Source: an uncultured candidatus Porisulfidus sp. (GTDB lineage: Bacteria > Pseudomonadota > Gammaproteobacteria > Poriferisulfidales > Oxydemutatoraceae). From it: 64,000 nucleotides of DNA. The notes below the pieces were generated by a model, which was not told the origin of the DNA, made no database searches, and was given only the letters and a program-made list of their open reading frames with translations. Shown in pieces: positions 7,030-59,333 of this stretch. Every line of letters begins with the position of its first letter. Within the stretch, counting starts at the first letter, position 1. Both the position numbers and the translations under genes were made by a program. The DNA is taken from contig OZ244052.1 in assembly GCA_965215125.1 (NCBI GenBank), positions 832,713 through 896,712 on the forward strand. The letters are read 5' to 3'.

Positions 7030-7806
7030 ATGATAATTTCCCACAAATTGCAAGTCATATTTATAAGACCAGTCAAGACTAGTGGTTCATCATTTGAAAC
7101 AGCACTAAAATATTATTGCGGTAAAGGTGATGTAGTTACAGATGATAAAAATTTTGTAAACTATTATAACGGTCATGATTTTACAAACGGCCACATAAGT
7201 GCTTCTGATATCAAGCGTAAGATACCGAAGAATATTTGGGATAATTACCTTAAAATATCTATTGTCCGCTGTATTTACGATTCTATAATTTCTTTATACT
7301 ATTGGGAACATATTGGGCTTAAAAAACCTCAACCTGTAAACTTTAGAACATATGTTTTACTTTCAGGGAATAGACAAATAGAACGTAATTTTAGAAGGCT
7401 TTGTGATGGTCAAAAATCTATCGTTGATTTTATTATTAGATATGAAAATGCAGACGAGGATATTACGGATTTAGAATGGAAAATAGGCTGTGTCGGCTTA
7501 CTAAACAAATATAAATCTAGGTCTGAAAAAACAAGAATTCGTCCTCACGGACAAGATATCTTCAAAGTTTACTCTAAGTACCCGATAGCGAGAGAACTAG
7601 TAGATACGCACTTCACCGAAGCTATGGAACGAAATGAACTTATTCAAAAATACTACCCGCTGTACAAGGAAAGGTTGAGCCGAAAAATTCCAGAACCGGG
7701 ATATCTTCCCAGAAAAACGGCGAAACTACTATTCTCTTTATATAATTATTATCCGATACGAAGATTGTATTATAAAAAACGATCCCGTTTTGAGACTGTA
7801 ATTTAA
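7030..7806 (+). CDS. sulfotransferase-fold protein (putative, PAPS-dependent)
   Basis: 258 aa in a visibly AT-rich tract; a 5-prime-PSB-like loop IRPVKTSGSSFE (compare the K-x-G-[ST]-[ST] motif of sulfotransferases); a 3-prime-PB-like segment IVRCIYDSIISLYYW (R...D...S.Y); no reliable homolog recall beyond the motifs. Confidence 0.4.
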   Translation: MIISHKLQVIFIRPVKTSGSSFETALKYYCGKGDVVTDDKNFVNYYNGHDFTNGHISASDIKRKIPKNIWDNYLKISIVRCIYDSIISLYYWEHIGLKKPQPVNFRTYVLLSGNRQIERNFRRLCDGQKSIVDFIIRYENADEDITDLEWKIGCVGLLNKYKSRSEKTRIRPHGQDIFKVYSKYPIARELVDTHFTEAMERNELIQKYYPLYKERLSRKIPEPGYLPRKTAKLLFSLYNYYPIRRLYYKKRSRFETVI

Positions 7807-9170
7807 ATTGTGTAAGTTCTAATTAAGATAAACTAGGTGGCAACACCAAACTAATAAAGGAGAACTTATGAAAGATATAAAAAGCATCGGGAAAGAATTA
7901 TCCCGTCATGTAAAGACCCAACAAGAGATGACCGATATCATCGGTCAGTTGATTAAGTCAATGATGGAAGGCATACTCAATGCGGAGCTGGACGACCATC
8001 TCGGCTATGAGAAAAACGACAAAGCATCCAAGCGTAGAAAGAATACCCGCAACGGGCATAGTGCCAAGACCTTAAAGACCAATTATGGGGATATAACGAT
8101 ACAGACACCGCGAGATCGGGAGGCGTCGTTTGAACCGATGATTGTGCCGAAAGGGAAAACCCGTTTAGACGGATTTGAGGATACGATATTGGCACTCTAT
8201 GCGCAAGGGATGACGGTGCGACAGATACAAGAGTCGATTAAAGAGTTGTATCATGGTGCGGAGATTTCTACTGCGGTTATCTCGAATGTCACCGATGCGG
8301 TGATAGACGAGGTGCGGACTTGGCAGAGCCGAGTGTTAGAGTGCCTCTATGTGGTGATGTATCTGGATTGCATCGTCGTCAAAGTGCGAGAGCAAGGCCG
8401 TATCATTAACAAGTCGATCTATGTTGCACTGGGCATAAAGCGCAGTGGACGCAAGGAATTACTCGGGTTGTGGATTGCCGAGACCGAAAGTGCTAAGTTC
8501 TGGTTAGCGATATTAACCGAGCTACAAAATCGGGGTGTGAAAGATATCTTGATCTGTTGCATAGATGGTCTGAAGGGTTTCGCAGAGGCGATTGCCAGCG
8601 TCTATCCGCAGGCAAAAATACAACTGTGTCTAGTCCACATGATGAGAAACTCGCTACGCTATGTTGCGACTAAAGATAAGAAAGCAGTCTCGGCAGCGTT
8701 AAAGAAGATATACAATAGTCCTACGGCGCAGGCTGCCGAGCAGGCGTTAGATGAGTTTGCCGATTGCTGGTCGGCAAAATATCCGAGTGTTGAGCGGTCG
8801 TGGCGCAATAACTGGGACAACCTGATTACGTTATTTGATTACCCGCCGGAGATTAGAAAAATTATCTATACAACGAATGCGATAGAAAGTCTCAATAGCG
8901 TGATTAGAAAATCCATCCGCAACCGGAAGATATTCCCGAGCGACCAATCGGCATTGAAAGTAGTTTATTTGGCAATCAAAAAAGCCTCTGCTCGCTGGAC
9001 GCTGCCGATACGAAATTGGATACCGGCGATGAACCGATTAGCTATTGAATACGAAGGTAGATTTGATATTGAGGAAAACGAAGTTACACAAAATAGTTAA
9101 CAGGCTCCCCGTTTTGGTCCCATTCCTTTTTTAAACAACGAAGATAAGCTAGTCTGATACATTCTTGAAA
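7805..9170 (+). mobile_element. IS256-family insertion sequence (boundaries approximate, terminal inverted repeats not identified)
   Basis: Transposase ORF 7868..9100 with a strong RBS (AAAGGAGAACTTATG); IS256 elements usually extend about 60-100 bp beyond each end of the ORF; I could not see convincing terminal IRs by eye. Confidence 0.45.
7868..9100 (+). CDS. IS256-family (mutator-type) transposase
   Basis: 410 aa; the N-terminal region LDDHLGYEKNDKASKRRKNTRNGHSAKTLKTNYGDITIQTPRDREASFEPMIVPKGKTRLDGFEDTILALYAQGMTVRQIQ is typical of IS256 transposases; DDE region present with the conserved C-terminal W...IE. Confidence 0.9.
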   Translation: MKDIKSIGKELSRHVKTQQEMTDIIGQLIKSMMEGILNAELDDHLGYEKNDKASKRRKNTRNGHSAKTLKTNYGDITIQTPRDREASFEPMIVPKGKTRLDGFEDTILALYAQGMTVRQIQESIKELYHGAEISTAVISNVTDAVIDEVRTWQSRVLECLYVVMYLDCIVVKVREQGRIINKSIYVALGIKRSGRKELLGLWIAETESAKFWLAILTELQNRGVKDILICCIDGLKGFAEAIASVYPQAKIQLCLVHMMRNSLRYVATKDKKAVSAALKKIYNSPTAQAAEQALDEFADCWSAKYPSVERSWRNNWDNLITLFDYPPEIRKIIYTTNAIESLNSVIRKSIRNRKIFPSDQSALKVVYLAIKKASARWTLPIRNWIPAMNRLAIEYEGRFDIEENEVTQNS

Positions 9171-11138: not shown

Positions 11139-13412
11139 GTGAAATACCGAACATACGCCAAGAGATCAAAATCTACCGCAAACATTTTGGGACACGACTC
11201 GATGTATCTGCGCAAAGGAAGTGGTTTATTGCTTATCTTCATAGGCTTATATTTTCTGCTCTCAATGTTGAGTTATCAAGCGGACGACCCGTCGTGGGCA
11301 AATAATATCAGCATGGACGAGACGCAAAACTTGGGAGGAATCGTCGGTGCATGGGTTGCCTATACTTTTTATTTTCTTTTCGGGGCACCGTCGCTCGTGC
11401 TGTTGCCGCTGGCTATTTTTACAAGTGCCCGCCGTTTGTTCAATCCTAATTACACACAGCTCTCTATATGGAATAGGCACCTAATTATTTGGTTGGCTGC
11501 GTTGCTGGCGATAATTGCTTGTTGTGGATTGGCAACCTTGCATTTTGTCACACCTGATCTTCCTACCAGTAGCGGTGGTCGTCTGGGTGAATTGGTTATA
11601 CAGAGTTTTTATCCGCTATTCGGTATGATAGGTTCCACCTTGTTATTGCTGGGTTTGATCGTAGGCAGCCTGACGGTGATGATGGATATCGCATGGCTGA
11701 AGATAGCGGATGCGGTCGGTTTGGCGTTGTTCTCGACTGCACAATGGTTCGTGGATACCAAGCAGTGGATACAAAGCCGTCTATTGGTTCACGAACGTTC
11801 CGTAGAACGCGCCCGAGCAGTCTCAAAGCGTAAGAAAAAACTCGTCAACAGAACCCCTCCCAAAATAGGAAATATGCTCAACAGTCTGTCGCCCGGCACG
11901 AAAAGTACGAAAAAACAACAAATCGCATTGCCGATCGAAGGAAAAGAGGAATTACCTTCGTTGAGTCTACTAGATCGAGAAACAGCATCGGTCTCGAGTT
12001 ACTCTAAAGACGAACTGGAAAAACTTGCCAGACAACTGGAAATTAAATTAGAAGATTTCGGCATCGTAGCTCAGGTGACCGAAGCACAACCCGGCCCTGT
12101 GGTCACCCGTTTTGAAGTGATGCCGTCTCCCGGCACCAAAGCGAGCAGTATTAGCAACCTCCAAAAAGACCTTGCGCGATCCTTATTGCTCCCCAGCATC
12201 CGAGTAGTGGAAGTGATCCCGGGGAAATCGTCGGTCGGCATAGAAGTGCCGAATAGAACGCGATCGGTTGTCAAATTCGGTGAACTCTTGCAGTCCGAAG
12301 AATACGAAAAACAGCACTCGCCGTTAACGCTTGCATTAGGCAAGGATGTTGCAGGTCAAGCGATATTCATAGATTTAGAAAAGTTACCCCACCTGCTGGT
12401 TGCCGGCACCACCGGTTCGGGCAAATCGGTTGCAGTACATTCTATGCTGGCGAGCTTGTTATTTCGTAATCTCCCCTCGCAAGTTCGTTTGATTTTGGTA
12501 GACCCTAAAATGCTTGAACTTAAATCGTATGAGAATATCCCTCATTTATTGTTACCTCTGATTACCGATATGCAGGAAGCTGCCGGTGCCTTACGGTGGG
12601 CAGTTGCCGAAATGGAACGGCGCTATCGCTTGATGGCGGCACTCAATGTACGCAACATCACATCGTATAACAATAAAGTTACTAAGGCTAAAAAAAGAAG
12701 GGAACCGATTGCCGACCCGCTCTTTGAGAGTGAAGACGAAGCCGCAATAGCTCCAACACTCGACGAGATACCGTATATCGTCATCGTCATCGATGAATTC
12801 GCCGATATGATTATGATGGTGGGCAAGAAAGTAGAAGAACTGATTATCCGACTGGCTCAAAAAGCACGTGCTGCGGGAATACATTTGGTACTGGCTACAC
12901 AAAGACCTTCGGTTGATATTATTACCGGTCTGGTCAAAGCGAATGTGCCGGCGAGAATCGCATTTCAAGTTTCCTCAAAGGTCGATTCGCGCACCATATT
13001 GGATCAAAACGGTGCCGAACAGCTGCTGGGGCAAGGCGATATGCTGTGTCTGATGCCGAGCTACGCAACGCCGATGCGTGTACACGGTGCTTTCATATCG
13101 GATAGCGAAGTGCAAGCGGTCACCGACTTTTTACGCAAACAAGGCGAGCCGTTTTATATAGAAAACCTGAATACATCGGACAACGGGGAGGTCGGTTTTA
13201 ATGCTGCAGAAACCGAAGACCCGCTCTATAAGCAAGCGGTGGAAATCGTAACCGAATCGGGTAAAGCGTCTATCTCTTATCTACAACGCCGCCTCAAAAT
13301 AGGTTATAACCGAGCGGCACGCATGATAGAAGAAATGGAAAGTGCCAAGATAGTTTCCAGCATACAATCGAGCGGATCCCGCCAAGTATTGGTCTCGTCG
13401 TCTAGAAAGTGA
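11139..13412 (+). CDS. ftsK: DNA translocase FtsK
   Basis: 757 aa; N-terminal membrane segments, a linker, a Walker A (VAGTTGSGKSV) motor domain and a C-terminal gamma winged-helix (SISYLQRRLKIGYNRAARMIEEME); followed by lolA as in many proteobacteria. Confidence 0.9.
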   Translation: MKYRTYAKRSKSTANILGHDSMYLRKGSGLLLIFIGLYFLLSMLSYQADDPSWANNISMDETQNLGGIVGAWVAYTFYFLFGAPSLVLLPLAIFTSARRLFNPNYTQLSIWNRHLIIWLAALLAIIACCGLATLHFVTPDLPTSSGGRLGELVIQSFYPLFGMIGSTLLLLGLIVGSLTVMMDIAWLKIADAVGLALFSTAQWFVDTKQWIQSRLLVHERSVERARAVSKRKKKLVNRTPPKIGNMLNSLSPGTKSTKKQQIALPIEGKEELPSLSLLDRETASVSSYSKDELEKLARQLEIKLEDFGIVAQVTEAQPGPVVTRFEVMPSPGTKASSISNLQKDLARSLLLPSIRVVEVIPGKSSVGIEVPNRTRSVVKFGELLQSEEYEKQHSPLTLALGKDVAGQAIFIDLEKLPHLLVAGTTGSGKSVAVHSMLASLLFRNLPSQVRLILVDPKMLELKSYENIPHLLLPLITDMQEAAGALRWAVAEMERRYRLMAALNVRNITSYNNKVTKAKKRREPIADPLFESEDEAAIAPTLDEIPYIVIVIDEFADMIMMVGKKVEELIIRLAQKARAAGIHLVLATQRPSVDIITGLVKANVPARIAFQVSSKVDSRTILDQNGAEQLLGQGDMLCLMPSYATPMRVHGAFISDSEVQAVTDFLRKQGEPFYIENLNTSDNGEVGFNAAETEDPLYKQAVEIVTESGKASISYLQRRLKIGYNRAARMIEEMESAKIVSSIQSSGSRQVLVSSSRK

Positions 13413-14044
13413 TGAAGCGATATATTAAGGCAGTTTGCCTTGTTTGTTTGTTTGCTATCTTTACACCCGCACATACCGATACATTGACTGCTCTGGATGT
13501 TTTCTTCAAATCCGAGACTTTTCGAGCCAATTTCGATCAAGAGGTTTATAGCTCGGAGGGACAAAAAATCGACGAGTCCAAAGGATTTACCTTGTTTCAT
13601 AGACCCGGCCGCTTTCGTTGGGAATACGTCTCCCCGGAACCTTATTTGATTTTAACCGACGGCTTAAGTCTGCTTATCTACGATGTGCCGTTAAAACAAG
13701 CGTATTTACGCCCTACACTCAATACTCTTGGAAAAGCACCACTGATGCTCCTTTTGGATAAGCGTACTGCGGTTGACGATTTTTATATAGACATCATAGC
13801 CGACAACGCCTACCCGAACATAGAGGGGGTGAGTTGGCTGAGGTTGGTACCAAAAGTAGACGACACCGACTTTGTTTTTTTTGATATAGGGTTTGAGGGA
13901 GAGCGTCTATCGCATTTAATACTCTACGACCACTTCGATCAATACACTCAGATACATTTTTACGATATACAAACAAACCCGGAATTTAAGAAAGACTATT
14001 TCCGTATCGAGCTACCGGAAGATGTAGATGTGATTCGGAATTGA
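13409..14044 (+). CDS. lolA: outer-membrane lipoprotein carrier protein LolA
   Basis: 211 aa; signal peptide and a LolA-like beta-barrel sequence; conserved ftsK-lolA adjacency; 4-bp overlap with ftsK. Confidence 0.8.
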   Translation: MMKRYIKAVCLVCLFAIFTPAHTDTLTALDVFFKSETFRANFDQEVYSSEGQKIDESKGFTLFHRPGRFRWEYVSPEPYLILTDGLSLLIYDVPLKQAYLRPTLNTLGKAPLMLLLDKRTAVDDFYIDIIADNAYPNIEGVSWLRLVPKVDDTDFVFFDIGFEGERLSHLILYDHFDQYTQIHFYDIQTNPEFKKDYFRIELPEDVDVIRN

Positions 14045-14100
14045 AGCCGTGTCGCTATAAAAAATAGAACCGCCACTTGTTGCAGTAGTGCAAGTGGCGT
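14045..14100. repeat. repeat-family copy (hairpin variant: gaaccgccacttgttgcagtagtgcaagtggcgtgac)
   Basis: Palindrome ccacttg-ttgcagtag-tgcaagtgg flanked by gaaccgc..gcgtgac, related to module a of the repeat family; a similar hairpin (gccacttgctccagttgggcaagtggcgtgac) is at 35300-35330. Confidence 0.6.
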
Positions 14101-14128
14101 GACGTTATAAGGTAGGCTTACAGTGTAA

Positions 14129-14941
14129 TTATCCGTATCTGGCAAGATAAAGCTTTATGCCTCGGTATCGCTTAATGGTAAGGAGTTTCTGAAAGGCATT
14201 TTTTCTAGTTATTAAATTTTGCTCGCTTAATTTTTTTTGAAAAAACTTAAGATCACTGGAAGAGTTAAAGCCCCTCCAATCTCTGTTTCCTCCTTGTTGC
14301 GAGAGTTTTTTATAGTAGTTATAGTTTTCTATAAAAGCCTTGTAACGCTCATAGGATCCATTCAGAAAATATCTAATGCGAGATATTTCTCTTTCCGGGT
14401 ATGTTAGTAAATCTTCATAGTATATAACCATTTTGTCTCCCTTAAAACGATCGTAGGCAACTATTAAATCTAAATAATCGAAAGCTGTACCGATAAAATT
14501 TATAACGTTCCTAGGTCTACTAATAAGTTCATGATAATCTCTAATTATCAGCAAAATAGCCGATACAAAAGTCGCTTTATAAGCCCAATGAGATTTATAA
14601 AGAATAAAGGGATTTTTTGGATTTACATGAGCTAAGGGATGTTCTTTGCCAGGGAAAGTATTTAGATAAATAGGAACATCTTTTGCATTACCTATGCCTC
14701 CATAAGTAGGGGAACTGGTGAGATATTCGGCTATAAAACGAACCCAATGATTACCGCTTTGAGGAGACGACCATAGTGCCCTATGATTGAAGGCAAGGTT
14801 ACGGGTAAAATAGCCAAAGTAATCTATCTTATTCGGATTAGTTAGAAATAAATAAAATAATAAGTCTGCGATTCTTTTTGAAAAAAATGAGTTACTATCA
14901 AGTCTATTGAATACAAGTCTATTGAATAATTTGCGATACAT
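14129..14941 (-). CDS. sulfotransferase-family protein (putative)
   Basis: 270 aa in an AT-rich tract; WSSPQSGNHWVRFI resembles the PKSGTTW 5-prime-PSB loop of sulfotransferases; IIRDYHELISRP resembles the RNPKD..VS 3-prime-PB motif. Confidence 0.5.
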   Translation of the reverse strand: MYRKLFNRLVFNRLDSNSFFSKRIADLLFYLFLTNPNKIDYFGYFTRNLAFNHRALWSSPQSGNHWVRFIAEYLTSSPTYGGIGNAKDVPIYLNTFPGKEHPLAHVNPKNPFILYKSHWAYKATFVSAILLIIRDYHELISRPRNVINFIGTAFDYLDLIVAYDRFKGDKMVIYYEDLLTYPEREISRIRYFLNGSYERYKAFIENYNYYKKLSQQGGNRDWRGFNSSSDLKFFQKKLSEQNLITRKNAFQKLLTIKRYRGIKLYLARYG

Positions 14942-15045
14942 GTATCATCCGGTAAATAATATTAAACATTATTTTAGCATTTATAGGGGAAAGCTATGTG
15001 TCATTGTAATGCGCTTAGGTTCTACACAAAGTTACACCGTTTGTG

Positions 15046-15510
15046 TTATCGCATCTTCTGGAGCCTGCGCTTTTCCATATCCCAACTGCGGTTGCGTTCA
15101 GCCATGCGTTTATCGTATTTGTGTTTTCCTTTGCCGATCCCCAGTTGGAGCTTGGCGCGGTTATTTTTCCAGTGCAGATCCAGCGGTATTAGGGAGTAAC
15201 CCTTGCGCGTGAGTTTTCCTTGCAAGCTGCGTAGTTCACGGCGATTGAGTAATAACTTGCGGGTGCGGGTAGGGTTTATCCGCGGATCACTTACGCTCGG
15301 CAACGGACTGATATGCGCATTGATTAACCACGCCTCGTTATCTTTCAGTATCGCATAGCTTTCTTTTAATTGTATGCGATTGGCTCTTAGACTTTTAACT
15401 TCCCAACCGTTGAGTACGATACCCGCTTCTATGCGCTCGTCTATGAAGTAGTCGCGCATCGCTTTAGGATTATGTGCCGTTTTGTTTCTTTTTATTTTGT
15501 TAGTTTTCAT
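15046..15510 (-). CDS. smpB: SsrA-binding protein SmpB
   Basis: 154 aa; NRKARHDYFI-like start (KAMRDYFIDERIEAGIVLNGWEVKSLR) and a basic C-terminal tail; conserved smpB / ratA-rnfH-bamE neighbourhood. Confidence 0.9.
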   Translation of the reverse strand: MKTNKIKRNKTAHNPKAMRDYFIDERIEAGIVLNGWEVKSLRANRIQLKESYAILKDNEAWLINAHISPLPSVSDPRINPTRTRKLLLNRRELRSLQGKLTRKGYSLIPLDLHWKNNRAKLQLGIGKGKHKYDKRMAERNRSWDMEKRRLQKMR

Positions 15511-15541
15511 AGTTCTACTATAATAAGGTTTTACTTTTTAT

Positions 15542-16927
15542 TTGCGGGGGGGCATATTCTATACAATGAAAGAGAACGATAACAATTATACACACAGCCA
15601 GTGGAGTTCTCGCTTCGTATTCATTATGGCAGCAATTGGTTTTGCGGTTGGTCTGGGTAATATATGGCGTTTCCCCTATATCGTCGGAGAGTATGGCGGT
15701 GGTGCTTTCGTATTACTCTATATATTCTTTATAGTACTGATGGGCTTGCCGGCCATGATGAGCGAGATCATGCTAGGTCGTCTGGGCAAGCACAACACCA
15801 TAGATACTTTTACACATTTTCGCTCCGAATACGGAACTAGTTCATTCTGGAAAATAATCGGTTTGATGGGGATTATAACGGGTATCTTGATTCTATCCTT
15901 CTATAGCGTAATTGCCGGGTGGGTCCTGTCTTATATACCCTATTCCGTGCAAGGTGTTTTTGAAAATCAATCGGTCGAAGGTATTGCGAGTATTTTCGAT
16001 GAACTCACCGCAAACCCCGGTCGTATGATTTTGTGGCACACCTTATTTATGATAATCACTGCGATCGTATTTATGCGCAACATCAATGCCGGCGTAGGGA
16101 GAGTAGTCTCTTATTTTATGCCGTTGCTACTACTACTGATAATCGCAATGATGATCTACAGTGCTTATGAAGCCGATATGGGACAAGCCATACACTTCCT
16201 GTTTAGATTCAGTTGGGATGACTTCAGTACCGAGATGGTCATAGTTGCTTTAGGGCAAGCATTTTTTTCATTGGGTATCGGCATGGGTGCGGCAATGATA
16301 TATGGTTCTTATTTACCGAACCGAGTACCGTTATTAAGCACAACCGCTATCATCGCCACAGCCGACACTCTGGTCGCTATTTTTGCCTCCTTGATGATTT
16401 TTCCTATTTTGTTTTCCTTTAATCTAGAGCCGGCAGCAGGGCCAGGCTTAATTTTTAAGACTCTTCCTATTGCTTTCTCACAAATGCCCGGAGGTGATTT
16501 AGTAGGCTTCACATTTTTCATATTACTTTTTATCGCTGCCTGGACCTCGGCTTTCTCGTTGTTGGAACCTTTCGTTGCGTGGTTGGTAGAATATACTCGC
16601 TGGACACGCGGGCAAGCTGCCGCAATCGCCGCCGGTTTGATTTGGTTGTTGGGCTTCGCAACTATCTTTTCTTTTAATATATGGCAAGAAGTCAAACTAG
16701 GAGGAATGACACTGTTTGACTTGGTGGATAAATTCACCGCCAATATCACGCTACCCTTGGGCGGGTTGTTGATTACTCTGTTTGCCGGTTGGTTTTTGCC
16801 TGCGATGGCAAGCAAAAAACAACTTAATTTAGGTTCCGAGTTGCATTATCGGATATGGCGATGGAGCGTACGCTATTTCTGCCCGATCTTGATATTGGCC
16901 ATTATGATTGCCAGTTGGATAGCTTAA
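15542..16927 (+). CDS. sodium-dependent transporter, neurotransmitter:sodium symporter (NSS/SNF) family
   Basis: 461 aa; the hallmark WSSRFVFIMAAIGFAVGLGNIWRFPY motif of NSS transporters; 11-12 predicted TM segments. Confidence 0.85.
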   Translation: MRGGIFYTMKENDNNYTHSQWSSRFVFIMAAIGFAVGLGNIWRFPYIVGEYGGGAFVLLYIFFIVLMGLPAMMSEIMLGRLGKHNTIDTFTHFRSEYGTSSFWKIIGLMGIITGILILSFYSVIAGWVLSYIPYSVQGVFENQSVEGIASIFDELTANPGRMILWHTLFMIITAIVFMRNINAGVGRVVSYFMPLLLLLIIAMMIYSAYEADMGQAIHFLFRFSWDDFSTEMVIVALGQAFFSLGIGMGAAMIYGSYLPNRVPLLSTTAIIATADTLVAIFASLMIFPILFSFNLEPAAGPGLIFKTLPIAFSQMPGGDLVGFTFFILLFIAAWTSAFSLLEPFVAWLVEYTRWTRGQAAAIAAGLIWLLGFATIFSFNIWQEVKLGGMTLFDLVDKFTANITLPLGGLLITLFAGWFLPAMASKKQLNLGSELHYRIWRWSVRYFCPILILAIMIASWIA

Positions 16928-18087: not shown

Positions 18088-18531
18088 TTGGTAAATAATA
18101 TGAACCAACAAGATATTAAACGGGCAGGACTTAAGGTTACGGTACCGAGAATCAAAATACTAGAAATAATGGAGGGAGCGGACTCTCGCCATGTAACCCC
18201 TGAACACATACACCGAAAGCTAACCTTAAAAGGGGAGAATGTTGGTTTGGCAACTATCTATAATGTGCTTGCCCAATTTGAAGCATCCGGACTGATACTG
18301 CGCCGCTATCTAAAAAAAGGACAAGCCTGTTACGAGATCAACCGAGGCGAACATCACGATCACATGGTCTGCACCCAGTGCGGTAGAATAGTCGAATTCG
18401 TCGATCAAACCATAGAAAAACGTCAAGACGCTATTGCCAAGAAACACGGTTTTAAACTCAACGACCACTCTTTGGTGATGTACGTGGATTGCACCTCAAA
18501 AAATTGTAAATATCTAAATCAATCCGAGTAG
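18088..18531 (+). CDS. fur: ferric uptake regulator Fur
   Basis: 147 aa; AGLKVTVPRIKILEIM DNA-binding helix; HHDHMVC and CxxC metal sites. Confidence 0.9.
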   Translation: MVNNMNQQDIKRAGLKVTVPRIKILEIMEGADSRHVTPEHIHRKLTLKGENVGLATIYNVLAQFEASGLILRRYLKKGQACYEINRGEHHDHMVCTQCGRIVEFVDQTIEKRQDAIAKKHGFKLNDHSLVMYVDCTSKNCKYLNQSE

Positions 18532-18656
18532 AACCACCGATTGAGCCGGTAGGTCAATCGGCGTGACATTGTGCAGAACCTTAACATGGGTGTGTAGGGC
18601 GGACCATTCCCCTCCTGTGGAGGGGTGGCAGGCGAAGCCTGACGGGGTGGTTGTGT
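18529..18656. repeat. composite repeat element (module a + module c)
   Basis: gaaccaccgattgagccggtaggtcaatcggcgtgacattgtgcagaaccttaacatgggtgtgtagggc...attcccctcctgtggaggggtggcaggcgaagcctgacggggtggtt sits directly after the fur stop codon. Confidence 0.8.
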
Positions 18657-21436: not shown

Positions 21437-21550
21437 CCACAACCACCCCATGGAAAGGTTTTACATTTTGTATATATGCTAGGGTTTTGCACAATGTCAC
21501 GCCGATTGACCTACTGGCTCAATCGGCGGTTCTATTGCGCCTGCCATCCT
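21437..21550. repeat. composite repeat element (module b + module a, inverted orientation)
   Basis: cacaaccaccccatggaaaggttttacattttgtatat...ttgcacaatgtcacgccgattgacctactggctcaatcggcggttctattgcgcctgcca; gives rise to the spurious ORF 21364..21588. Confidence 0.8.
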
Positions 21551-24210: not shown

Positions 24211-24552
24211 CTACTTAGGTCTATAATCGGCGGAGGTTTCATTCACGGACACTCGCCTATGATCAAAAACCACATACTTTTCCTTGATGACTTTCTTAAA
24301 ATCATCCGATATGTTTTGCCAATCTAAAACATCTACTTTGAAAGGAAGATCCGATTCTTCAAAGTCAAATTTAAGTAAGTTCATAACCTGCAAAGGTATT
24401 TTGTTTTGTGAAACGATAGCCAAGTCAAGATCGGAACTATTATTCGCAGTCTGCTTTACGCGCGAACCGAAAACCCAAATCGTTGCATCGGGAACATGCT
24501 TTTTAAGAATACGCCGAACAATTTTCTCGTGACGAGGTCGCAGGCTAATCAT
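24211..24552 (-). CDS. minimal nucleotidyltransferase (MNT), antitoxin-type partner of HEPN
   Basis: 113 aa; pol-beta-type NTase motif GSRVKQTANNSSDLDLAIV (GS...DxD); overlaps the upstream HEPN gene by 8 bp. Confidence 0.7.
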   Translation of the reverse strand: MISLRPRHEKIVRRILKKHVPDATIWVFGSRVKQTANNSSDLDLAIVSQNKIPLQVMNLLKFDFEESDLPFKVDVLDWQNISDDFKKVIKEKYVVFDHRRVSVNETSADYRPK

Positions 24553-24958
24553 TTAATTTCCGTTCCATTTGTTTGAGGACATATTGAACCTCTTGCAGAA
24601 AATCATCGGTTGCGTAAAAAACTTGATCGGCAATGCTTAAATCGTAAGTATGGGAACTATTATCTCTATTATTTTTATAGACGAACCATTTCTCGGCATC
24701 CGATAAAATCCCTACTTTTTGACCGTAACGAAAGATATCCCGAATAGGCATTTGATCGAAGTTTTCGTCGTAATATTCCTTTAAGTAGCGAACCAGCATT
24801 TTGCGCGCCATTTCATAGCTAATAACAAATGCCTGAATAGCCCCTCTTTTTAGTGAGCGCTCGTGTTTTTCGTCCGTCCCCTTATATTTGTTATAGATAG
24901 TCAGAGACTCTTCCAATGCTACGATAGTTTTCTTAAAACTACTTAAATCAAGTGCCAT
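24545..24958 (-). CDS. HEPN-domain protein, HI0074-family nucleotidyltransferase substrate-binding protein (toxin-type)
   Basis: 137 aa; HI0074-like sequence and a C-terminal Rx4H HEPN motif (RDNSSH). Confidence 0.7.
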   Translation of the reverse strand: MALDLSSFKKTIVALEESLTIYNKYKGTDEKHERSLKRGAIQAFVISYEMARKMLVRYLKEYYDENFDQMPIRDIFRYGQKVGILSDAEKWFVYKNNRDNSSHTYDLSIADQVFYATDDFLQEVQYVLKQMERKLND

Positions 24959-25084
24959 AGGTTCCCATTCAATAATTAGAGATTTCGGAAAATATTTTTG
25001 TTAAATAAAACGATTTCCCATATCCCACATATTTTACCATTCCTTTGATTCGTGATAATTCATGGATGTATTCTGTACCGACAT

Positions 25085-25203
25085 AACGCTTTAAGGTTCT
25101 GCACAACGTCACACCAATAGACCTATCGGGCAGACATCATAATTGCCGATTGACCTACTGGTTCAATCGGCGGCTCTATACTGCCCCTACAAACTCAATC
25201 GGT
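25085..25203. repeat. repeat-family copy (module a variant, inverted)
   Basis: ggttctgcacaacgtcacacc...gccgattgacctactggttcaatcggcggctctatactgcccc...caatcggtggttc overlaps the 3-prime end of the glycosyltransferase gene. Confidence 0.7.
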
Positions 25204-26406
25204 GGTTCTCTTTTTTTCAATACCGGCAACCTTGTCATATCTAAGGGATTTTTTCCAGGCCTTATCCACTCTAGCTTTCCGTACAAGATCTTTTTGAGGA
25301 ATAGAAATATAATTTGAAATACTTTTATGATATCTGATTTTTCGGTTGTCCATAGAAACGATTTTTATTGCAGGATTAAAGAATCTAATAGTGTCTATAA
25401 AAAAAGAACCCACAGTGTAAATCATTTTGACTTTTGCTAATGTCAAAATGTCAATCAAAGCATCTTGTCTTTGTTGATGCCCTGCATACGGTTCATGGCG
25501 GTGTAGTGATCGCCTGTCCTTAGACCGTTTTATATCTCTGCTAATTACTCTACCGGAAAATGCTTCGTGTATTGCATCAACGAAATGTGTATTATCCGAA
25601 CATGCATAGATCTGACAATGATCATCTATTACTTGTTTAAGATAATCAATATAGCTATCTATGCTAATTATTCTATTTTCGTCAATAACATCGGTTTGAC
25701 GATAATGTACTCCTATACACTCTTCTTTAATATTTGCATTACTCCATTGATCCGCTTGCTGTTGTATTTCCTGCTTGATAGATAGCTTTGAAATTATTTT
25801 ATATCCGTATTCGCTGGAAATTTTAGACTTAGCGAATTCTTCCCATAGGCTAGGGTATATCTTTTCTCTATAACACAGATCCACCAGCGGTTTCTTTAAT
25901 TTTGTAAAATTCTCCGGATGGTATGTTTTTGCATAATTCAAAACAGGATTTTCAAAGAAATTGCTACCACCGGTGATAAAAGTATCGGGGAAAGTAAACT
26001 TGACATTAATGCCTAGTTTTTCACACAACCAAGCTACTCCAATTATTCTAGGAAAATAACTTCCTAGCGCAGGACAATCTATTTTTACATAAGCATAATC
26101 GGCCAAAGAGGTTTTGCGGTGCGCAGTATATTGTTTGAAGAAATCTTTATATAAAAAATCATATGCTTTTTTGACGGGTTCATAATTATATCTAAATTCA
26201 AACTCTATTTTTTCAGGGAATCCATTATTGAAACAAGCAAAAGGGTGTCGCATCAAAAACAAGGTGTTCCTAATCAATTGCCCATAGAATCTTTTATATC
26301 TAGTATTGGAGCACTGCTCGGAAACACAGAAAAAAACATAGGCAATTATTATTCTAGCTTTAAGTATGTGAAAGTAATTAGTGACTTTAAAAAACATTTT
26401 GTTCAA
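25195..26406 (-). CDS. fucosyltransferase-superfamily glycosyltransferase (FUT8/NodZ/GT11-like motifs)
   Basis: 403 aa, AT-rich; motif I IGVHYRQTDV (compare GVHVRRTDK); motif II IYACSDNTHFVDAIHEAF (compare FLATDDP...EA); motif III DILTLAKVKMIYTVGSFF (compare DIYILSQADFLVCTFSSQ); assignment by motif only. Confidence 0.45.
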   Translation of the reverse strand: MNKMFFKVTNYFHILKARIIIAYVFFCVSEQCSNTRYKRFYGQLIRNTLFLMRHPFACFNNGFPEKIEFEFRYNYEPVKKAYDFLYKDFFKQYTAHRKTSLADYAYVKIDCPALGSYFPRIIGVAWLCEKLGINVKFTFPDTFITGGSNFFENPVLNYAKTYHPENFTKLKKPLVDLCYREKIYPSLWEEFAKSKISSEYGYKIISKLSIKQEIQQQADQWSNANIKEECIGVHYRQTDVIDENRIISIDSYIDYLKQVIDDHCQIYACSDNTHFVDAIHEAFSGRVISRDIKRSKDRRSLHRHEPYAGHQQRQDALIDILTLAKVKMIYTVGSFFIDTIRFFNPAIKIVSMDNRKIRYHKSISNYISIPQKDLVRKARVDKAWKKSLRYDKVAGIEKKRTTD

Positions 26407-28299: not shown

Positions 28300-28630
28300 G
28301 CAAAAATAGAATCGCCGATTAAGCCGGTAGGTCAATCGGCGTGACTTTGTGCAGAACCTCAACATGATTGCTAAATGCATGCATTACAAAATGTAATAGC
28401 TGCTTGCGCCACCCAATTACGCAAACCACCTGCGCCGTATGGTTTTGGTTTCCATAAATCGGGTGGATGTATAAATTGTTCAGATACGACACAACCACCC
28501 CATGGAAAGGCTTTACATATTGTACTATGTACAAAGGTTCTGCACAAAGTGACACCACTTGTGCTACTGCAACAAGCGGTGGTTCTATTGCGCCTGCCAC
28601 CCCTCCACAGGAGGGGAATTGACTCGTGCA
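28300..28630. repeat. large composite repeat block (module a, module b, module a-inverted, module c-inverted)
   Basis: gccgattaagccggtaggtcaatcggcgtgactttgtgcagaacctcaacatg ... acacaaccaccccatggaaaggctttacatattgtactatgtacaaaggttctgcacaaagtgacaccacttgtgctactgcaacaagcggtggttctattgcgcctgccacccctccacaggaggggaatt; produces the overlapping spurious ORFs 28319..28642, 28371..28631 and 28375..28698. Confidence 0.8.
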
Positions 28631-29741: not shown

Positions 29742-31613
29742 ATGCTTGATAATTTACCGATCCTAAAAAGAATAAATAAAGTACTACTCGAACTTTATAA
29801 AAACATAACGCCTTTCCTAGGCTGGGTCGGTGAATTAAAAAACACCGAAATAATCAAAGCCGATGTGCTTGCGGGCACAACGGTAGCACTCGTGTTAGTA
29901 CCCCAATCTATGGCGTATGCACAGCTCGCAGGATTACCACCGTATTACGGTTTGTATGCTTCTTGTCTTCCCGTTGCTATTGCCGCCTTGTTCGGTTCTT
30001 CGCGTCAGCTTGCAACCGGACCGGTTGCCGTAGTATCGTTATTAACCGCATCTGCAATAGAACCGCTCGCAGTAAGCGGTGGCGAAGGTTATTTTATGTA
30101 TGCGGTGATGTTGGCATTTATGGTTGGCATGGTACAACTCATATTAGGTGTAGTACGTCTGGGCATAATGATAGACTTTCTCTCCCATCCGGTGGTCACC
30201 GGATTCACCAACGCTGCGGCGATTATTATTGCAACTTCTCAACTCAACAATATTTTCGGTGTAGAAGTAGATAGAGCGGAATATCACTATCAAGTCGTCT
30301 GGAGTACGCTAAAAGCCGCATGGGATAACCCGCATCTGCCGACTTTATTAATCGCAGTAGGTTCTTTGTTATTGATGATAGCATTAAAGAGATACCTGCC
30401 TAAATTACCTTATGTTTTGATTGCGGTCATTATAGCGACCCTAGTTTCTTGGTTCTTTGATTTTGAGGCAAACGGCGGGCGTGTTGTAGGAAAAATTCCG
30501 CAAGGATTACCGTCTTTTGAATTGCCAATCGTCAGTTGGAAGATGATACAAGAAATGGTAGGGGTTGCGTTGGCGATTGCACTGATAGGTTTTATGGAAG
30601 CGATATCAATCGCCAAAGCAATGGCGGTTCAAACAAGACAACGGCTAAATGCAGATCAGGAACTTATCGGACAAGGTTTATCCAATATAACCTCCAGCAT
30701 GTTTCAAGGTTACGCGGTCTCGGGATCGTTTTCTCGGTCGGCGGTCAATATAAATACCGGTGCGGTTACCGGTTTCTCTTCTATCGTGACCGCAGTAATA
30801 ATCGGCTTTACACTGCTGTTTCTAACACCCTTGCTATACCACTTGCCGCAAGCAACCTTAGCATCGGTCATCATTCTAGCTGTCGCCTCGCTGGTGCGAA
30901 TCAAGGCGTTCAAAAATATATGGCGCATACAGTATCAGGATGGCTTTGTTGCCGTAGTAACTTTTGTGCTTACATTACTTTTTGCGCCTCATCTAGAGAA
31001 CGGTATTTTAATCGGTGTGGTGCTGTCTTTGGGGCTTTATGTATACCGCACGATGCGTCCCGATATTTCTTTACTCGGCAGACACACCGACGGCGGCTTA
31101 AGAGATGCCGCTAAATATATCCTTAAAGTATGTCCTCAAATCGCAATTGTGCGTTTCGGCGGACCTTTATTTTTTGCAAATACGGGTTATTTTCACGACA
31201 AAGTATTGGAGCGAGTTAGCAACCAACCGGAACTTAGATTCATTATTATAGATGCGGTTTCGATGAACGAAATAGATGCAACAGGACAAGAGATGTTGTA
31301 TGAACTGGCGCGCACCTTAGTGGAACAAGACATAGAATTTTTATTCGCCCGCCCACCTATAGAGGTGATGAATACTTTTGAACGCAGCGGTTTCGCTAGC
31401 GAAGAGTGGGCTGATCATTTCTTTAATTCTCGCGATCAAGCCCTGCAATACGCATGGGCAGAATTGGCTAAGCAGAGGCGTAACTGTTCGGTGGAAGGCT
31501 GTACGGCTAAAGATATGTCGGGTTGCATTTTGAGGAGAGAGCGTCGTATACCTAGTCAGCTACTAAGAATTATGGGTGGGGGCTTGCCCAAACCTAGCAC
31601 TTCGGATAATTAG
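29742..31613 (+). CDS. SulP-family anion (sulfate/bicarbonate) permease with C-terminal STAS domain
   Basis: 623 aa; SulP membrane core (VPQSMAYAQLAGLPPYYGLY) and STAS domain (IAIVRFGGPLFFANTGYF). Confidence 0.85.
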   Translation: MLDNLPILKRINKVLLELYKNITPFLGWVGELKNTEIIKADVLAGTTVALVLVPQSMAYAQLAGLPPYYGLYASCLPVAIAALFGSSRQLATGPVAVVSLLTASAIEPLAVSGGEGYFMYAVMLAFMVGMVQLILGVVRLGIMIDFLSHPVVTGFTNAAAIIIATSQLNNIFGVEVDRAEYHYQVVWSTLKAAWDNPHLPTLLIAVGSLLLMIALKRYLPKLPYVLIAVIIATLVSWFFDFEANGGRVVGKIPQGLPSFELPIVSWKMIQEMVGVALAIALIGFMEAISIAKAMAVQTRQRLNADQELIGQGLSNITSSMFQGYAVSGSFSRSAVNINTGAVTGFSSIVTAVIIGFTLLFLTPLLYHLPQATLASVIILAVASLVRIKAFKNIWRIQYQDGFVAVVTFVLTLLFAPHLENGILIGVVLSLGLYVYRTMRPDISLLGRHTDGGLRDAAKYILKVCPQIAIVRFGGPLFFANTGYFHDKVLERVSNQPELRFIIIDAVSMNEIDATGQEMLYELARTLVEQDIEFLFARPPIEVMNTFERSGFASEEWADHFFNSRDQALQYAWAELAKQRRNCSVEGCTAKDMSGCILRRERRIPSQLLRIMGGGLPKPSTSDN

Positions 31614-31846
31614 CGACAATCATTCCCCTCCTTCAAAGGGGTGTCAAGCTCTGCTTGACGGTGACGTTGCAGCGTGTCTGCACAACTATAGTGCCGGTAC
31701 ATTCCCCTCCTTCGGAGGGGTGGCAGGCGCAATAGAACCGCCGATTGAGCCAGTAGGTCAATCGGCGTAACATTGTGCAGAACCTCGATACATAGTACAA
31801 AATGTAAAGCCTTTCCTTGGGGTGGTCGCAGAAGTATCCGTACAAG
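31614..31846. repeat. composite repeat block filling the whole sulP-trmB intergenic region
   Basis: attcccctccttcaaaggggtg...attcccctccttcggaggggtggcaggcgcaatagaaccgccgattgagccagtaggtcaatcggcgtaacattgtgcagaacctcgatac...acaaaatgtaaagcctttccttggggtggtcgc...attcccttcctctggaggggaatg: modules c (twice, variant loops), a and b-inverted. Confidence 0.8.
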
Positions 31847-35276: not shown

Positions 35277-35400
35277 GAATCGCTGATTGAGCCATAGAAT
35301 CGCCACTTGCTCCAGTTGGGCAAGTGGCGTGACTTCGTGCAAAACTAAATACTGCGTCCGTTAGAAACATTACATATATCCAAAGTCAATCGGCGGTTCT
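35277..35400. repeat. repeat-family copy (module a variants split by a hairpin)
   Basis: gaatcgctgattgagccatagaatcgccacttgctccagttgggcaagtggcgtgacttcgtgcaaaac ... caaagtcaatcggcggttctac. Confidence 0.6.
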
Positions 35401-49701: not shown

Positions 49702-51829
<2,128 letters not shown>

Positions 51830-51900
51830 TATTCTGTCCTTATAAGAATACAAAATAATAACAGTACTAAACTGTGTTAATAAATGATAGTGTGAAAATA

Positions 51901-51937
51901 AAAAAGAGCCGGGGATATTAAATCCCCGGCAAAGGGG
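51901..51937 (-). terminator. rho-independent terminator-like hairpin (minus strand)
   Basis: On the minus strand gccggggatttaatatccccggc is followed by TCTTTTTTATTTT; lies about 350 nt downstream of the dnaX stop and 70 nt upstream of the queA start. Confidence 0.5.
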
Positions 51938-59271: not shown

Positions 59272-59333
59272 GTCGTTCTCCCTAATTATGTAAAGTGAAT
59301 AAAAGCCTTTTCAAGTATACCACAAATAAATAA

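What the first reader, a model, noticed from the sequence alone, without database searches (positions are those of the whole stretch)
14129..14941. Second, unrelated sulfotransferase-like gene in an AT-rich single-gene islet between lolA and smpB
The protein has a PKSGTTW-like loop (PQSGNHW) and an RNPKD-like motif (IIRDYHELISRP), typical of cytosolic-type (Sulfotransfer_1) enzymes. This is different from the 7030 protein. It is bounded by repeat-family hairpins at 14045 and about 15017. In E. coli the lolA neighbourhood continues rarA-serS, so this is an insertion into a conserved neighbourhood. Together with the NodZ/FUT8-like glycosyltransferase at 25195, this recalls rhizobial Nod-factor decoration enzymes (NodH/NoeE sulfotransferases, NodZ fucosyltransferase). 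That would be unexpected here and could indicate sulfated-fucosylated glycan or small-molecule synthesis.
Basis: partly seen in the sequence, partly recalled or inferred. Interest (0 to 1): 0.5.

Follow-up and report, generated by a model that had tools for sequence, protein, structure and literature searches.

The report
Accessory sulfotransferase in sponge-symbiont genome hotspot
This is a real, fast-evolving sulfotransferase gene sitting alone in a variable spot of a sulfur-oxidising sponge symbiont's chromosome; it belongs to an unnamed family that has multiplied in these symbionts alongside fucosyl- and other glycosyltransferases, most likely to decorate the bacterial surface sugar coat.

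Summary
The ORF at 14129-14941(-) is real: 270 aa, GC 0.335 against about 0.45 in the flanks. It lies between convergent lolA and smpB.

**Location.** Relatives have the same junction empty, or filled with an orphan, a GT25 plus a sulfatase, or a restriction-modification pair. It is therefore a hotspot with variable cargo.

**Best reading.** A PAPS-dependent sulfotransferase that decorates surface glycan. The Nod-factor parallel is analogy only. Open points are a Gln at the usually basic PSB-loop position and the untested PAPS supply.

The parts
14129..14941 (-). Sulfotransferase-family gene, 270 aa. It is a member of an unnamed family that is expanded in sponge symbionts.
14777..14941 (-). 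N-terminal extension of about 55 residues, specific to the symbiont clade. It is predicted helical at low confidence and is absent from the short bacterial and viral family members.
   Evidence: Alignment A1. pLDDT 51-68 for residues 1-50. 21 of 56 aligned members carry an extension.
14899..14928 (-). Perfect in-frame 15-nt tandem duplication (FNRLV/FNRLD) inside the N-terminal extension.
   Evidence: the repeat finder family D3. The same duplication is in the L001 ortholog protein.
14744..14770 (-). 5'-phosphosulfate-binding loop, S58-S-P-Q61-S62-G63-N64-H65-W66. Gln61 replaces the Arg found in most of the family.
   Evidence: Aligns to YPKSGTHW of SULT7A1. Position 61 is R in 44/56 and Q in 2/56; S62 is invariant.
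14588..14596 (-). K116-S-H118, the candidate catalytic Lys/His pair at the end of a beta strand.
   Evidence: K116 is invariant and H118 is present in 55/56. Strand E115-117 in the model. Equivalence to SULT K106/H108 is inferred and was not superposed.
14513..14548 (-). 3'-phosphate-binding motif IIRDYHELISRP, with invariant R134.
   Evidence: Aligns to IVRNPKD of SULT7A1. R134 is invariant.
14408..14422 (-). Y174-Y-E-D-L178 motif, the best-conserved block and the only part that Pfam PF00685 detects in the single protein.
   Evidence: Pfam stretch 167-206. Y175, E176 and D177 are each conserved in at least 90% of members. Aligns to FYEEM of SULT7A1.
14064..14110 (-). REP-like intergenic repeat copy with a 9-bp-stem hairpin at 14071-14099, followed on the minus strand by a T-run. 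It is a possible terminator for the sulfotransferase gene.
   Evidence: Terminator-like site on the minus strand, 14086-14069 (1 found against 0.8 expected, so weak).
15018..15046 (+). Left-half copy of the same repeat family. Its 7-bp hairpin, 15024-15046, overlaps the smpB stop codon.
13409..14044 (+). lolA, the left border of the hotspot.
   Evidence: PF03548 E=2.5e-32. Junction comparison.
15046..15510 (-). smpB, the right border of the hotspot.
   Evidence: PF01668 E=4.4e-50. Directly adjacent to lolA in L017.
25195..26406 (-). NodZ/FUT8-like (GT23-type) fucosyltransferase in a second AT-rich islet. Its family is physically clustered with the sulfotransferase family in other genomes.

Best explanation
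The gene encodes a cytoplasmic, PAPS-dependent sulfotransferase of a divergent and so far unnamed subfamily of the Sulfotransfer_1/3 superfamily. It is an accessory gene. It occupies a recombination or insertion hotspot between lolA and smpB in the chromosome of a sulfur-oxidising sponge symbiont (Ca. Oxydemutatoraceae, Gammaproteobacteria). The subfamily has expanded in these symbionts together with NodZ-like fucosyltransferases and GT25 glycosyltransferases. Most likely the enzyme transfers sulfate from PAPS to a sugar hydroxyl of a lipid-linked LPS/LOS-core or other surface-glycan intermediate on the cytoplasmic face of the inner membrane. The paralogs would then provide variable sulfation patterns on a fucosylated surface glycan. 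Shown here: the fold, the motifs, the accessory status, the family expansion, and the co-location of paralogs with LPS-core and fucosyltransferase genes. Inferred: the PAPS donor, the glycan acceptor, and activity of this particular copy. The confidence given is for the whole statement; the sulfotransferase fold and the accessory status alone would rate above 0.9.
For: Fold and family:
- The profile of 56 members hits SULT7A1, SULT1A3 and SULT1C3 at E=3e-10 to 7e-10, with the PSB loop, 3'PB motif and YYEDL block aligned.
- 37/56 members hit PF00685 and 23/56 hit PF13469.
- The AF2 model has pLDDT 88.5.
- The Foldseek top 50 hits are all sulfotransferases.
- S62, R68, E72, K116 and R134 are invariant, and H118 is present in 55/56.

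Accessory status and hotspot:
- The gene is syntenic only in the closest MAG, L001.
- The junction is empty in L017.
- In other relatives it holds an 81-aa orphan (L018/19), a GT25 plus a sulfatase (L016), or a methylase plus ResIII pair (L014/15).

Expansion:
- There are 1-5 copies per chromosome-scale contig.
- Tandem arrays of 2-3 copies occur.
- All symbiont copies form one clade in an NJ tree, with paralog lineages shared across genomes.

Glycan context:
- One paralog lineage sits at a conserved site next to lptFG. Beside it are 5-6 GT25 genes, or a GT9, a polysaccharide pyruvyltransferase and a GT2.
- Another array sits beside three NodZ-like genes and a methyltransferase.

PAPS link: in Omnitrophica locus L008 a family member is clustered with a CysN/CysC fusion, a Stf0-like sulfotransferase and a GT2.

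Selection: dN/dS is 0.41-0.62 in the family. It is significantly below 1 for three pairs (p=0.026, 0.0099 and 1e-4, the last for the 70%-identical pair). Core neighbours give 0.07-0.15.

Sulfate uptake: a SulP sulfate permease is encoded in the window.
Against: - The window protein alone is below every curated threshold.
- Its PSB-loop basic residue is Gln61, where 44/56 family members have Arg. From established sulfotransferase enzymology, the equivalent Lys or Arg is catalytically important in characterised enzymes, so this copy may be weakly active or inactive.
- For the window/L001 ortholog pair alone, dN/dS of 0.58 is not significantly below 1 (p=0.11).
- This copy, and those in L020-L022, are lone genes among housekeeping genes with no glycan neighbours. 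The glycan acceptor is therefore extrapolated from paralogs.
- The closest structural matches are small-molecule and peptide sulfotransferases, not carbohydrate ones.
- No APS kinase or ATP sulfurylase signature is present in the window, and the rest of the genome could not be searched.
Confidence: 0.55

Rival explanations
1. It is a small-molecule sulfotransferase that sulfates host- or symbiont-derived metabolites such as sterols, phenolics or alkaloids, for detoxification, solubilisation or natural-product tailoring. The paralogs would cover different acceptors.
For: The best sequence-profile and structure matches are cytosolic SULT1/2/7 enzymes and the antibiotic-tailoring Teg12, Teg14 and StaL. 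Many copies are lone genes with no glycan context. The fast evolution and multiple paralogs fit diversification of an acceptor pocket. Six of the 28 substitutions against the ortholog cluster at residues 143-152, just after the 3'PB motif.
Against: No biosynthetic gene cluster (PKS, NRPS or terpene) was seen next to any copy. Where there is context, it is LPS-core glycosyltransferases, lptFG, NodZ-like fucosyltransferases, or CysNC plus GT2. Structural similarity to SULTs is at 11-15% identity and reflects the shared PAPS-binding core.
Confidence: 0.2
2. This particular copy is catalytically impaired or decaying. It would be a relic of a turnover-prone gene family, kept intact only by chance or recruited for a non-catalytic binding role.
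For: Gln61 sits at the position that is Arg in 44/56 family members, and in the symbiont clade 8 of 21 members lack Arg there. dN/dS against the ortholog is 0.58, not significantly below 1 (p=0.11). The hotspot shows rapid gain and loss of cargo. No promoter-like site lies upstream of the start, and the number of such sites in the region is at chance level.
Against: The ORF is intact and full-length in two genomes that differ at 5.5% of its nucleotides, and both keep Gln61. Every other invariant family residue is retained. The N-terminus is conserved among paralogs. Family-wide dN/dS is significantly below 1 over longer divergence.
Confidence: 0.15
3. It is a protein or peptide tyrosine sulfotransferase, in the manner of RaxST or TPST, that modifies a secreted peptide or effector involved in signalling to the host.
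Against: No precursor peptide, type I secretion genes or RaxABC-like genes were seen beside any copy. TPST matches score below the SULT matches.
Confidence: 0.05
4. It is part of a Nod-factor-like lipochitooligosaccharide decoration system, a NodH/NoeE analogue working with a NodZ analogue.
For: The 25195 family is closest to NodZ and co-locates with the sulfotransferase family elsewhere. The CysN/CysC fusion next to a distant member has the same domain architecture as NodQ (this comparison is from my own knowledge).
Against: tblastn of the sulfotransferase against 72,556 plasmids, at E up to 1, found no rhizobial hit. No chitin-synthase-like, deacetylase or acyltransferase (nodABC-type) genes were seen in any context. 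The contexts are LPS-core and lptFG.
Confidence: 0.02

Closest known systems
Cytosolic sulfotransferases (Pfam PF00685 Sulfotransfer_1; for example mouse SULT7A1 5x2b, human SULT1B1 2z5f)
   Different: Only 11-15% identity. The window protein fails the Pfam cut-off. Gln replaces Lys in the PSB loop. The Ser 8 residues after the 3'PB Arg is not conserved. The C-terminal RKGxxGDWK motif is replaced by a loose RxW..G..S block. The core is shorter, about 215 aa, and the symbiont clade adds a 55-aa N-terminal extension.
Bacterial tailoring sulfotransferases Teg12, Teg14 and StaL (glycopeptide antibiotics)
   Same: Among the top Foldseek hits (E about 1e-6, 14-19% identity) and hit by the family profile at E about 2e-6. 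They are bacterial, cytoplasmic and PAPS-dependent.
   Different: Those enzymes sit in antibiotic gene clusters. No such cluster was seen beside any family member here.
Rhizobial NodH/NoeE with NodZ and NodQ (Nod-factor sulfation and fucosylation)
   Same: The same combination of enzyme activities turns up across this family's loci, though no single locus has all three. A sulfotransferase sits with a NodZ-like fucosyltransferase. Elsewhere a sulfotransferase sits with a CysN/CysC fusion.
   Different: No detectable sequence similarity to rhizobial plasmid genes. There is no nodABC context. The contexts are LPS-core loci. The resemblance is in function only.
LOS/LPS outer-core diversification loci of mucosal pathogens (GT25 enzymes such as Lic2A and LgtB; comparison from my own knowledge)
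   Same: Arrays of GT25 genes lie next to LPS export genes, with variable gene content between close strains. This fits a variable surface-glycan toolkit.
   Different: Sulfation is not a typical feature of those LOS systems. No phase-variation repeats were demonstrated here.

Membership tests
Sulfotransferase superfamily (PF00685 Sulfotransfer_1 / PF13469 Sulfotransfer_3) | The protein itself scores above the Pfam gathering threshold. | tested here: not met
   PF00685 gives 11.9 bits against a cut-off of 22, E=0.14, over residues 167-206 only. NCBIfam gives no hit.
Sulfotransferase superfamily (PF00685 Sulfotransfer_1 / PF13469 Sulfotransfer_3) | Family-level homology: a profile of its relatives matches known sulfotransferases. 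| tested here: met
   37/56 relatives hit PF00685, best E=1.5e-11. The profile against PDB has 52 sulfotransferase-family sequences (including retinol dehydratase) as its best 52 hits, the best at E=3e-10.
Sulfotransferase superfamily (PF00685 Sulfotransfer_1 / PF13469 Sulfotransfer_3) | Sulfotransferase fold. | tested here: met
Sulfotransferase superfamily (PF00685 Sulfotransfer_1 / PF13469 Sulfotransfer_3) | 5'-phosphosulfate-binding loop with a basic residue (P-K/R-S-G-T-T-type). | tested here: inconclusive
   The loop S-x-P-x-S-G-N-H-W is present and aligned. The basic residue, however, is Gln61 in this protein and in its L001 ortholog, against Arg in 44/56 of the family.
Sulfotransferase superfamily (PF00685 Sulfotransfer_1 / PF13469 Sulfotransfer_3) | 3'-phosphate-binding Arg motif (RNPKD-like). 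| tested here: met
   R134 is invariant and the motif aligns to IVRNPKD of SULT7A1. The downstream Ser is not conserved.
Sulfotransferase superfamily (PF00685 Sulfotransfer_1 / PF13469 Sulfotransfer_3) | Catalytic base (His in cytosolic SULTs). | tested here: inconclusive
   K116 is invariant and H118 is present in 55/56, after strand 115-117. The HMM alignment places the SULT7A1 His three positions away, and I could not superpose coordinates.
Sulfotransferase superfamily (PF00685 Sulfotransfer_1 / PF13469 Sulfotransfer_3) | PAPS-dependent sulfuryl transfer, with a PAPS supply in the cell. | not testable with these tools
   There is no APS-kinase or sulfurylase signature in the window. The only support is indirect: CysN/CysC beside a distant member and a SulP permease in the window.
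NodH/NoeE Nod-factor sulfotransferases | Sequence relatedness to the rhizobial enzymes. | tested here: not met
   tblastn against 72,556 plasmids at E up to 1 returned only three Dinoroseobacter plasmids at E=0.4, and no rhizobial hit. I did not check that nodH-bearing plasmids are in the collection.
NodH/NoeE Nod-factor sulfotransferases | Genomic association with nodABC-type lipochitooligosaccharide synthesis genes. | tested here: not met
   None was seen in the window or in 12 paralog and homolog contexts.
Genomic islet / accessory gene in an integration hotspot | Deviant composition, and absence from the same site in relatives whose flanks are conserved. | tested here: met
   GC3 is 0.28 against 0.45-0.53. 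The lolA|smpB junction is empty or carries other cargo in L014-L019.
Genomic islet / accessory gene in an integration hotspot | Mobility signatures: integrase or transposase, or target-site duplication. | tested here: not met
   There is no mobility gene in the islet. No direct repeat in the two intergenic flanks brackets the gene. The flanking repeats are members of a genome-wide family in opposite orientation. An IS605 TnpB adjoins one distant copy only.
GT23-type fucosyltransferases (NodZ/FUT8), for the linked 25195 protein | Fold and the three conserved motifs of GDP-fucose transferases. | tested here: met

The most novel reading that the evidence does not exclude
The co-expanded, AT-rich and fast-evolving sulfotransferase, NodZ-like fucosyltransferase, GT25 and pyruvyltransferase genes form a host-glycan mimicry toolkit. 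The symbionts would build sulfated and possibly pyruvylated fucose-containing surface oligosaccharides. These would resemble the sulfated and pyruvylated fucose-bearing epitopes of sponge aggregation-factor glycans (known from Microciona prolifera; recalled from my own knowledge). The bacteria would then be recognised as self and escape phagocytosis by sponge cells. Paralog turnover at hotspots would track host-specific glycan codes.
Probability: 0.15. Interest if true: 0.75.

Novelty: new member of a known kind. Interest (0 to 1): 0.4.

Why it matters
How sponge cells tell resident symbionts from food bacteria is an open question. Surface-glycan composition is a leading candidate answer. This gene marks a family that no annotation pipeline currently names (no Pfam, NCBIfam or source name for the symbiont members). 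That family has multiplied in chromosome-complete genomes of a widespread sulfur-oxidising sponge-symbiont lineage. It has done so together with fucosyltransferases and LPS-core glycosyltransferases. The result is a concrete, testable set of genes for sulfated and fucosylated surface glycans in symbionts. Taken alone, the gene is an ordinary accessory enzyme of a well-known superfamily.

Tried and rejected
- **Single-sequence searches.** Pfam, NCBIfam and PDB phmmer on the protein alone gave nothing above threshold.
- **Second paralog.** An exact look-up to locate the window genome's second paralog, P0026, failed.
- **RNA families.** An Rfam scan of 13000-16000 returned only chance-level hits.
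- **Promoters and terminators.** Counts in the region are at chance level.
- **Target-site duplications.** No direct repeat lies in both intergenic flanks so as to bracket the gene. I considered that the two flanking repeat copies are halves of one element split by the insertion. I rejected this because they lie in opposite orientation.
- **PAPS pathway.** A six-frame motif scan of the window for APS kinase, ATP sulfurylase, CysD, CysH and CysQ found nothing. Two papers on related symbionts say nothing about PAPS or assimilatory sulfate reduction.
- **Rhizobial homology.** tblastn against plasmids gave no NodH/NoeE-like hit.
- **The 7030 protein.** Pfam (E up to 0.5), NCBIfam and PDB gave no sulfotransferase match. 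Its identity remains open.
- **Recent viral origin.** Viral homologs exist, but they fall outside the symbiont clade at 22-40% identity. I rejected a recent viral origin for the islet.
- **Literature.** Searches found no report of sulfotransferase expansion in sponge symbionts.
Full report
**Observation.** The ORF at 14129-14941 on the minus strand is present, starts with ATG and encodes 270 aa. The gene is clearly AT-rich. Its GC is 0.335 and GC3 is 0.28. The neighbours ftsK, lolA, smpB and an SNF-family transporter have GC3 of 0.45-0.53, and the window averages 0.454. Pfam confirms the flanks as LolA (E=2.5e-32) and SmpB (E=4.4e-50), which converge on the islet.

**The hairpins.** There is a perfect 9-bp-stem hairpin at 14071-14099 and a 7-bp one at 15024-15046. 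Both belong to a REP-like family of intergenic repeats spread across the window. The left-end motif GGTTCTRCACAAAGTKACRCC occurs 9 times against 0 expected. The right-end motif CAAGYGGYGGTTCTAT occurs 14 times against 1.5 expected. The copy near 15018 is only a left half and overlaps the smpB stop. The two copies lie in opposite orientation. The hairpins are therefore ordinary intergenic furniture of this genome and do not mark the islet's boundaries. No direct repeat brackets the gene.

**What the protein is.** Taken alone, the protein fails every curated test:
- Pfam PF00685 scores 11.9 bits against a cut-off of 22, over residues 167-206 only.
- NCBIfam gives no hit.
- PDB phmmer gives no hit.

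Its relatives settle the question.
- There are 66 relatives in the 5.8-billion-protein set, none of them named. An exhaustive phmmer search found 630 cluster representatives at E<=1e-3.
- Of 56 aligned members, 37 hit PF00685 and 23 hit PF13469 on their own.
- The family profile hits crystallised cytosolic sulfotransferases at E=3e-10 to 1e-6 (SULT7A1, 1A3, 1C3, 1B1, 1A1). It also hits StaL, Teg12/14, CurM-ST and the TPSTs. The PSB loop aligns to YPKSGTHW, the 3'PB motif to IVRNPKD, and YYEDL to FYEEM.
- An AlphaFold2 model built on this alignment is confident (pLDDT 88.5, pTM 0.84). Only the first 50 or so residues are weak.
- The Foldseek top 50 PDB hits are all sulfotransferases.
- S62, R68, E72, K116 and R134 are invariant across the family, and H118 is present in 55 of 56.

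Two peculiarities deserve note.
- The basic residue of the PSB loop is Arg in 44 of 56 members. It is Gln61 here and in the ortholog. Within the symbiont clade, 8 of 21 members lack Arg at this position.
- The symbiont clade carries a roughly 55-residue N-terminal extension that short-form bacterial and viral members lack. The extension contains a perfect in-frame 15-nt tandem duplication.

**Organism.** The closest loci come from chromosome-scale MAGs labelled Ca. Oxydemutatoraceae and Ca. Porisulfidus. Porisulfidus is described as a known sponge symbiont (PMC12988363). Oxydemutator is listed among the dominant sponge symbionts of Stylissa (PMC11685487). The window itself is housekeeping chromosome: topA, polA, argC, ftsK, recN, dapF, xerC, fpg, gyrB, accC, tgt, queA and dnaX. 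It also holds a SoxYZ fusion, a SulP sulfate permease and two IS elements.

**Insertion or core gene.** In the closest MAG (L001) the gene is syntenic between lolA and smpB. It is 90% identical at protein level, while the flanking proteins are 93-95% identical. The junction in more distant relatives, which share the argC-ftsK-lolA ... smpB-SNF-ratA backbone, looks like this:

| Locus | Identity of its lolA to the window's | Content between lolA and smpB |
|---|---|---|
| L017 | 53% | nothing; the two genes are about 120 bp apart |
| L018/L019 | 72% | an 81-aa orphan |
| L016 | 78% | a GT25 glycosyltransferase and a sulfatase/laminin-G protein |
| L014/L015 | 85% | an N6/N4 methylase and a ResIII helicase; the backbone is rearranged |

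The right reference is the lineage's own lolA|smpB adjacency, not the E. coli rarA-serS arrangement. The site is a hotspot with changing cargo.

**The family in these symbionts.**
The window's genome carries two, P0001 and P0026.
- Tandem arrays of two or three copies occur.
- Every symbiont copy has GC 0.33-0.36 in genomes of 0.40-0.46.
- A neighbour-joining tree puts all symbiont copies in one clade. That clade holds several paralog lineages, each shared across genomes. Short bacterial and viral forms fall outside it. The low GC is therefore an old and persistent property of the family, not a sign of recent import. I cannot explain this.
- dN/dS is 0.58 for the window/L001 pair, which is not significantly below 1 (p=0.11). 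Five other pairs give 0.41-0.62. The value is significantly below 1 for three pairs (p=0.026, 0.0099 and 1e-4, the last for the 70%-identical pair). Neighbouring core genes give 0.07-0.15.

The family is thus functional but evolves quickly.

**Clues to the substrate.** The window copy has no informative neighbours. The same is true of copies in a second symbiont lineage, which sit alone after a pstS-like gene, once next to an IS605 TnpB. Other paralogs are more informative.
- One paralog lineage contains the window genome's second copy, P0026. It occupies a conserved site between an abhydrolase-dtd pair and RDD-lptG-lptF in three genomes. Beside it is a variable block. That block is five or six GT25 genes, or a GT9 heptosyltransferase-family gene with a polysaccharide pyruvyltransferase and a GT2. 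This is an LPS/LOS core glycosylation region.
- In Porisulfidus, three tandem sulfotransferases are followed by a methyltransferase and three homologs (50-63% identity) of the window's 25195 protein. A second Porisulfidus genome repeats the pattern.
- In an Omnitrophica contig, a 34%-identical short-form member lies in a cluster of CysN/CysC fusion, Stf0-like sulfotransferase, GT2, family member and DUF707. This ties the family to PAPS synthesis and glycosyl transfer.

**Mechanism proposed.** The enzyme is cytoplasmic. It has no signal peptide or transmembrane segment by inspection, and PAPS is a cytoplasmic donor. It would transfer sulfate from PAPS to a hydroxyl of a sugar on a lipid-linked LPS/LOS-core or other surface-glycan intermediate. 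That intermediate would be built by the GT25, GT9 and NodZ-like enzymes before Lpt-dependent export. The paralogs would supply different acceptor specificities. Their high turnover and elevated dN/dS fit a variable surface exposed to host recognition. The fold, motifs, accessory status, expansion and co-location are shown. The donor, the acceptor and the activity of this Gln61 copy are inferred.

**Rival explanations.**
- Small-molecule acceptors. This is supported by the nearest structures being SULTs and by the lone-gene contexts. Where a context exists, it argues against this reading.
- An impaired or decaying copy. This is supported by Gln61 and a dN/dS close to neutral. Against it, the ORF is intact in two genomes and every other invariant residue is retained.
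- Tyrosine sulfation of peptides. TPSTs appear among the fold hits, but no precursor or secretion genes were found.
- Nod-factor-like chemistry. There is no homology to rhizobial plasmid genes and no nodABC context.

**Comparison with what is known, and novelty.** The protein is a member of the sulfotransferase superfamily by homology and fold. It belongs to a subfamily that curated libraries neither capture nor name. It resembles cytosolic SULTs in its PAPS-binding core. It differs from them in the PSB-loop residue, the C-terminal motif and the N-terminal extension. I found no paper reporting expansion of sulfotransferases in sponge symbionts. One paper mentions PF13469 sulfotransferase auxiliary genes on sponge-associated viral contigs (PMC12426252). 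I also found 18 IMG/VR contigs carrying short-form family members, among them a giant-virus MAG. I rate the gene itself a new member of a known kind and of moderate interest. The more interesting and unproven reading is that the co-expanded sulfotransferase, fucosyltransferase, GT25 and pyruvyltransferase genes build host-like sulfated, fucosylated glycans.

**Limits.**
- The rest of the genome could not be searched, so the PAPS supply is untested beyond the window.
- Model coordinates could not be superposed on ligand complexes.
- The tree is a quick neighbour-joining tree.

Noticed in passing
window 18528-18580, 21483-21535, 25095-25211, 28306-28358, 28536-28588, 31732-31784, 35294-35402, 59330-59382, 63594-63733 (plus 14064-14110 and 15018-15046): A REP-like family of intergenic hairpin repeats. 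Its conserved ends are GGTTCTRCACAAAGTKACRCC and CAAGYGGYGGTTCTAT, found 9 and 14 times against 0 and 1.5 expected by chance. Stem changes between copies are compensatory (for example 28553 against 14071).
   Followed up: partly
window 7030-7806 (+), with an IS256/Mutator-family transposase at 7868-9100 (+): A third AT-rich single-gene islet (GC 0.332, GC3 0.27), directly upstream of an IS256-type transposase. Its counterpart in the close relative L001 is only 60% identical, while flanking genes are about 94% identical. In L001 it lies beside a duplicated argC fragment.
   Followed up: partly
window 24545-26406: The AT-rich stretch holding the NodZ-like gene also contains a gene for a nucleotidyltransferase substrate-binding (HEPN-like) protein at 24545-24958 (PF08780, E=7.5e-25). 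REP-like repeat copies lie at 25095-25211, reaching into the 3' end of the 25195 ORF as I called it.
   Followed up: no
window 29742-31613 (+) and 58462-59271 (-): A SulP-family sulfate permease with a STAS domain, and a SoxY-SoxZ fusion protein. Both fit a sulfur-oxidising lifestyle and sulfate transport. No APS kinase or ATP sulfurylase was found in the window.
   Followed up: partly
L016 5822-9437 (relative's lolA|smpB junction): In a 2.96 Mb relative, the same hotspot carries a GT25 glycosyltransferase and an 839-aa sulfatase with a laminin-G domain. One genome therefore has a sulfate-adding gene, and another a sulfate-removing gene, at the identical site.
   Followed up: no
L023-L040 (IMG/VR contigs; for example L024 on a 246 kb contig, L027 on a 409 kb contig, L025 on a GVMAG contig): Short-form members of this sulfotransferase family (22-40% identity) occur on 18 viral contigs, including a giant-virus MAG and several contigs of 190-409 kb. 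The ten viral loci I checked have GC 0.24-0.42 (seven of them 0.24-0.33). In a quick tree they fall outside the symbiont clade.
   Followed up: partly
All symbiont-clade copies (window 14129-14941; L001-L006, L011, L013): The sulfotransferase, NodZ-like and 7030-type genes all keep a GC of about 0.33-0.36 in genomes of 0.40-0.46. This holds even though the sulfotransferase paralog lineages are old (55-65% identity) and shared across genomes. The composition has not drifted toward that of the host genome, and I have no explanation.
   Followed up: partly
window 48269-49477 (-) and 34107-35228 (-): An IS605 OrfB/TnpB (Cas12f-like TNB domain) gene and a Fic/DOC-family protein with DUF4172 lie among the housekeeping genes. 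A TnpB also adjoins a sulfotransferase-family islet in another symbiont (L020).
   Followed up: no
window 51701-52700: A further AT-rich stretch (minimum GC 0.32 in 600-bp windows). It covers the intergenic region between queA (50801-51853) and dnaX (52281-53981), plus the 3' end of dnaX. No separate ORF of at least 120 aa lies there.
   Followed up: no
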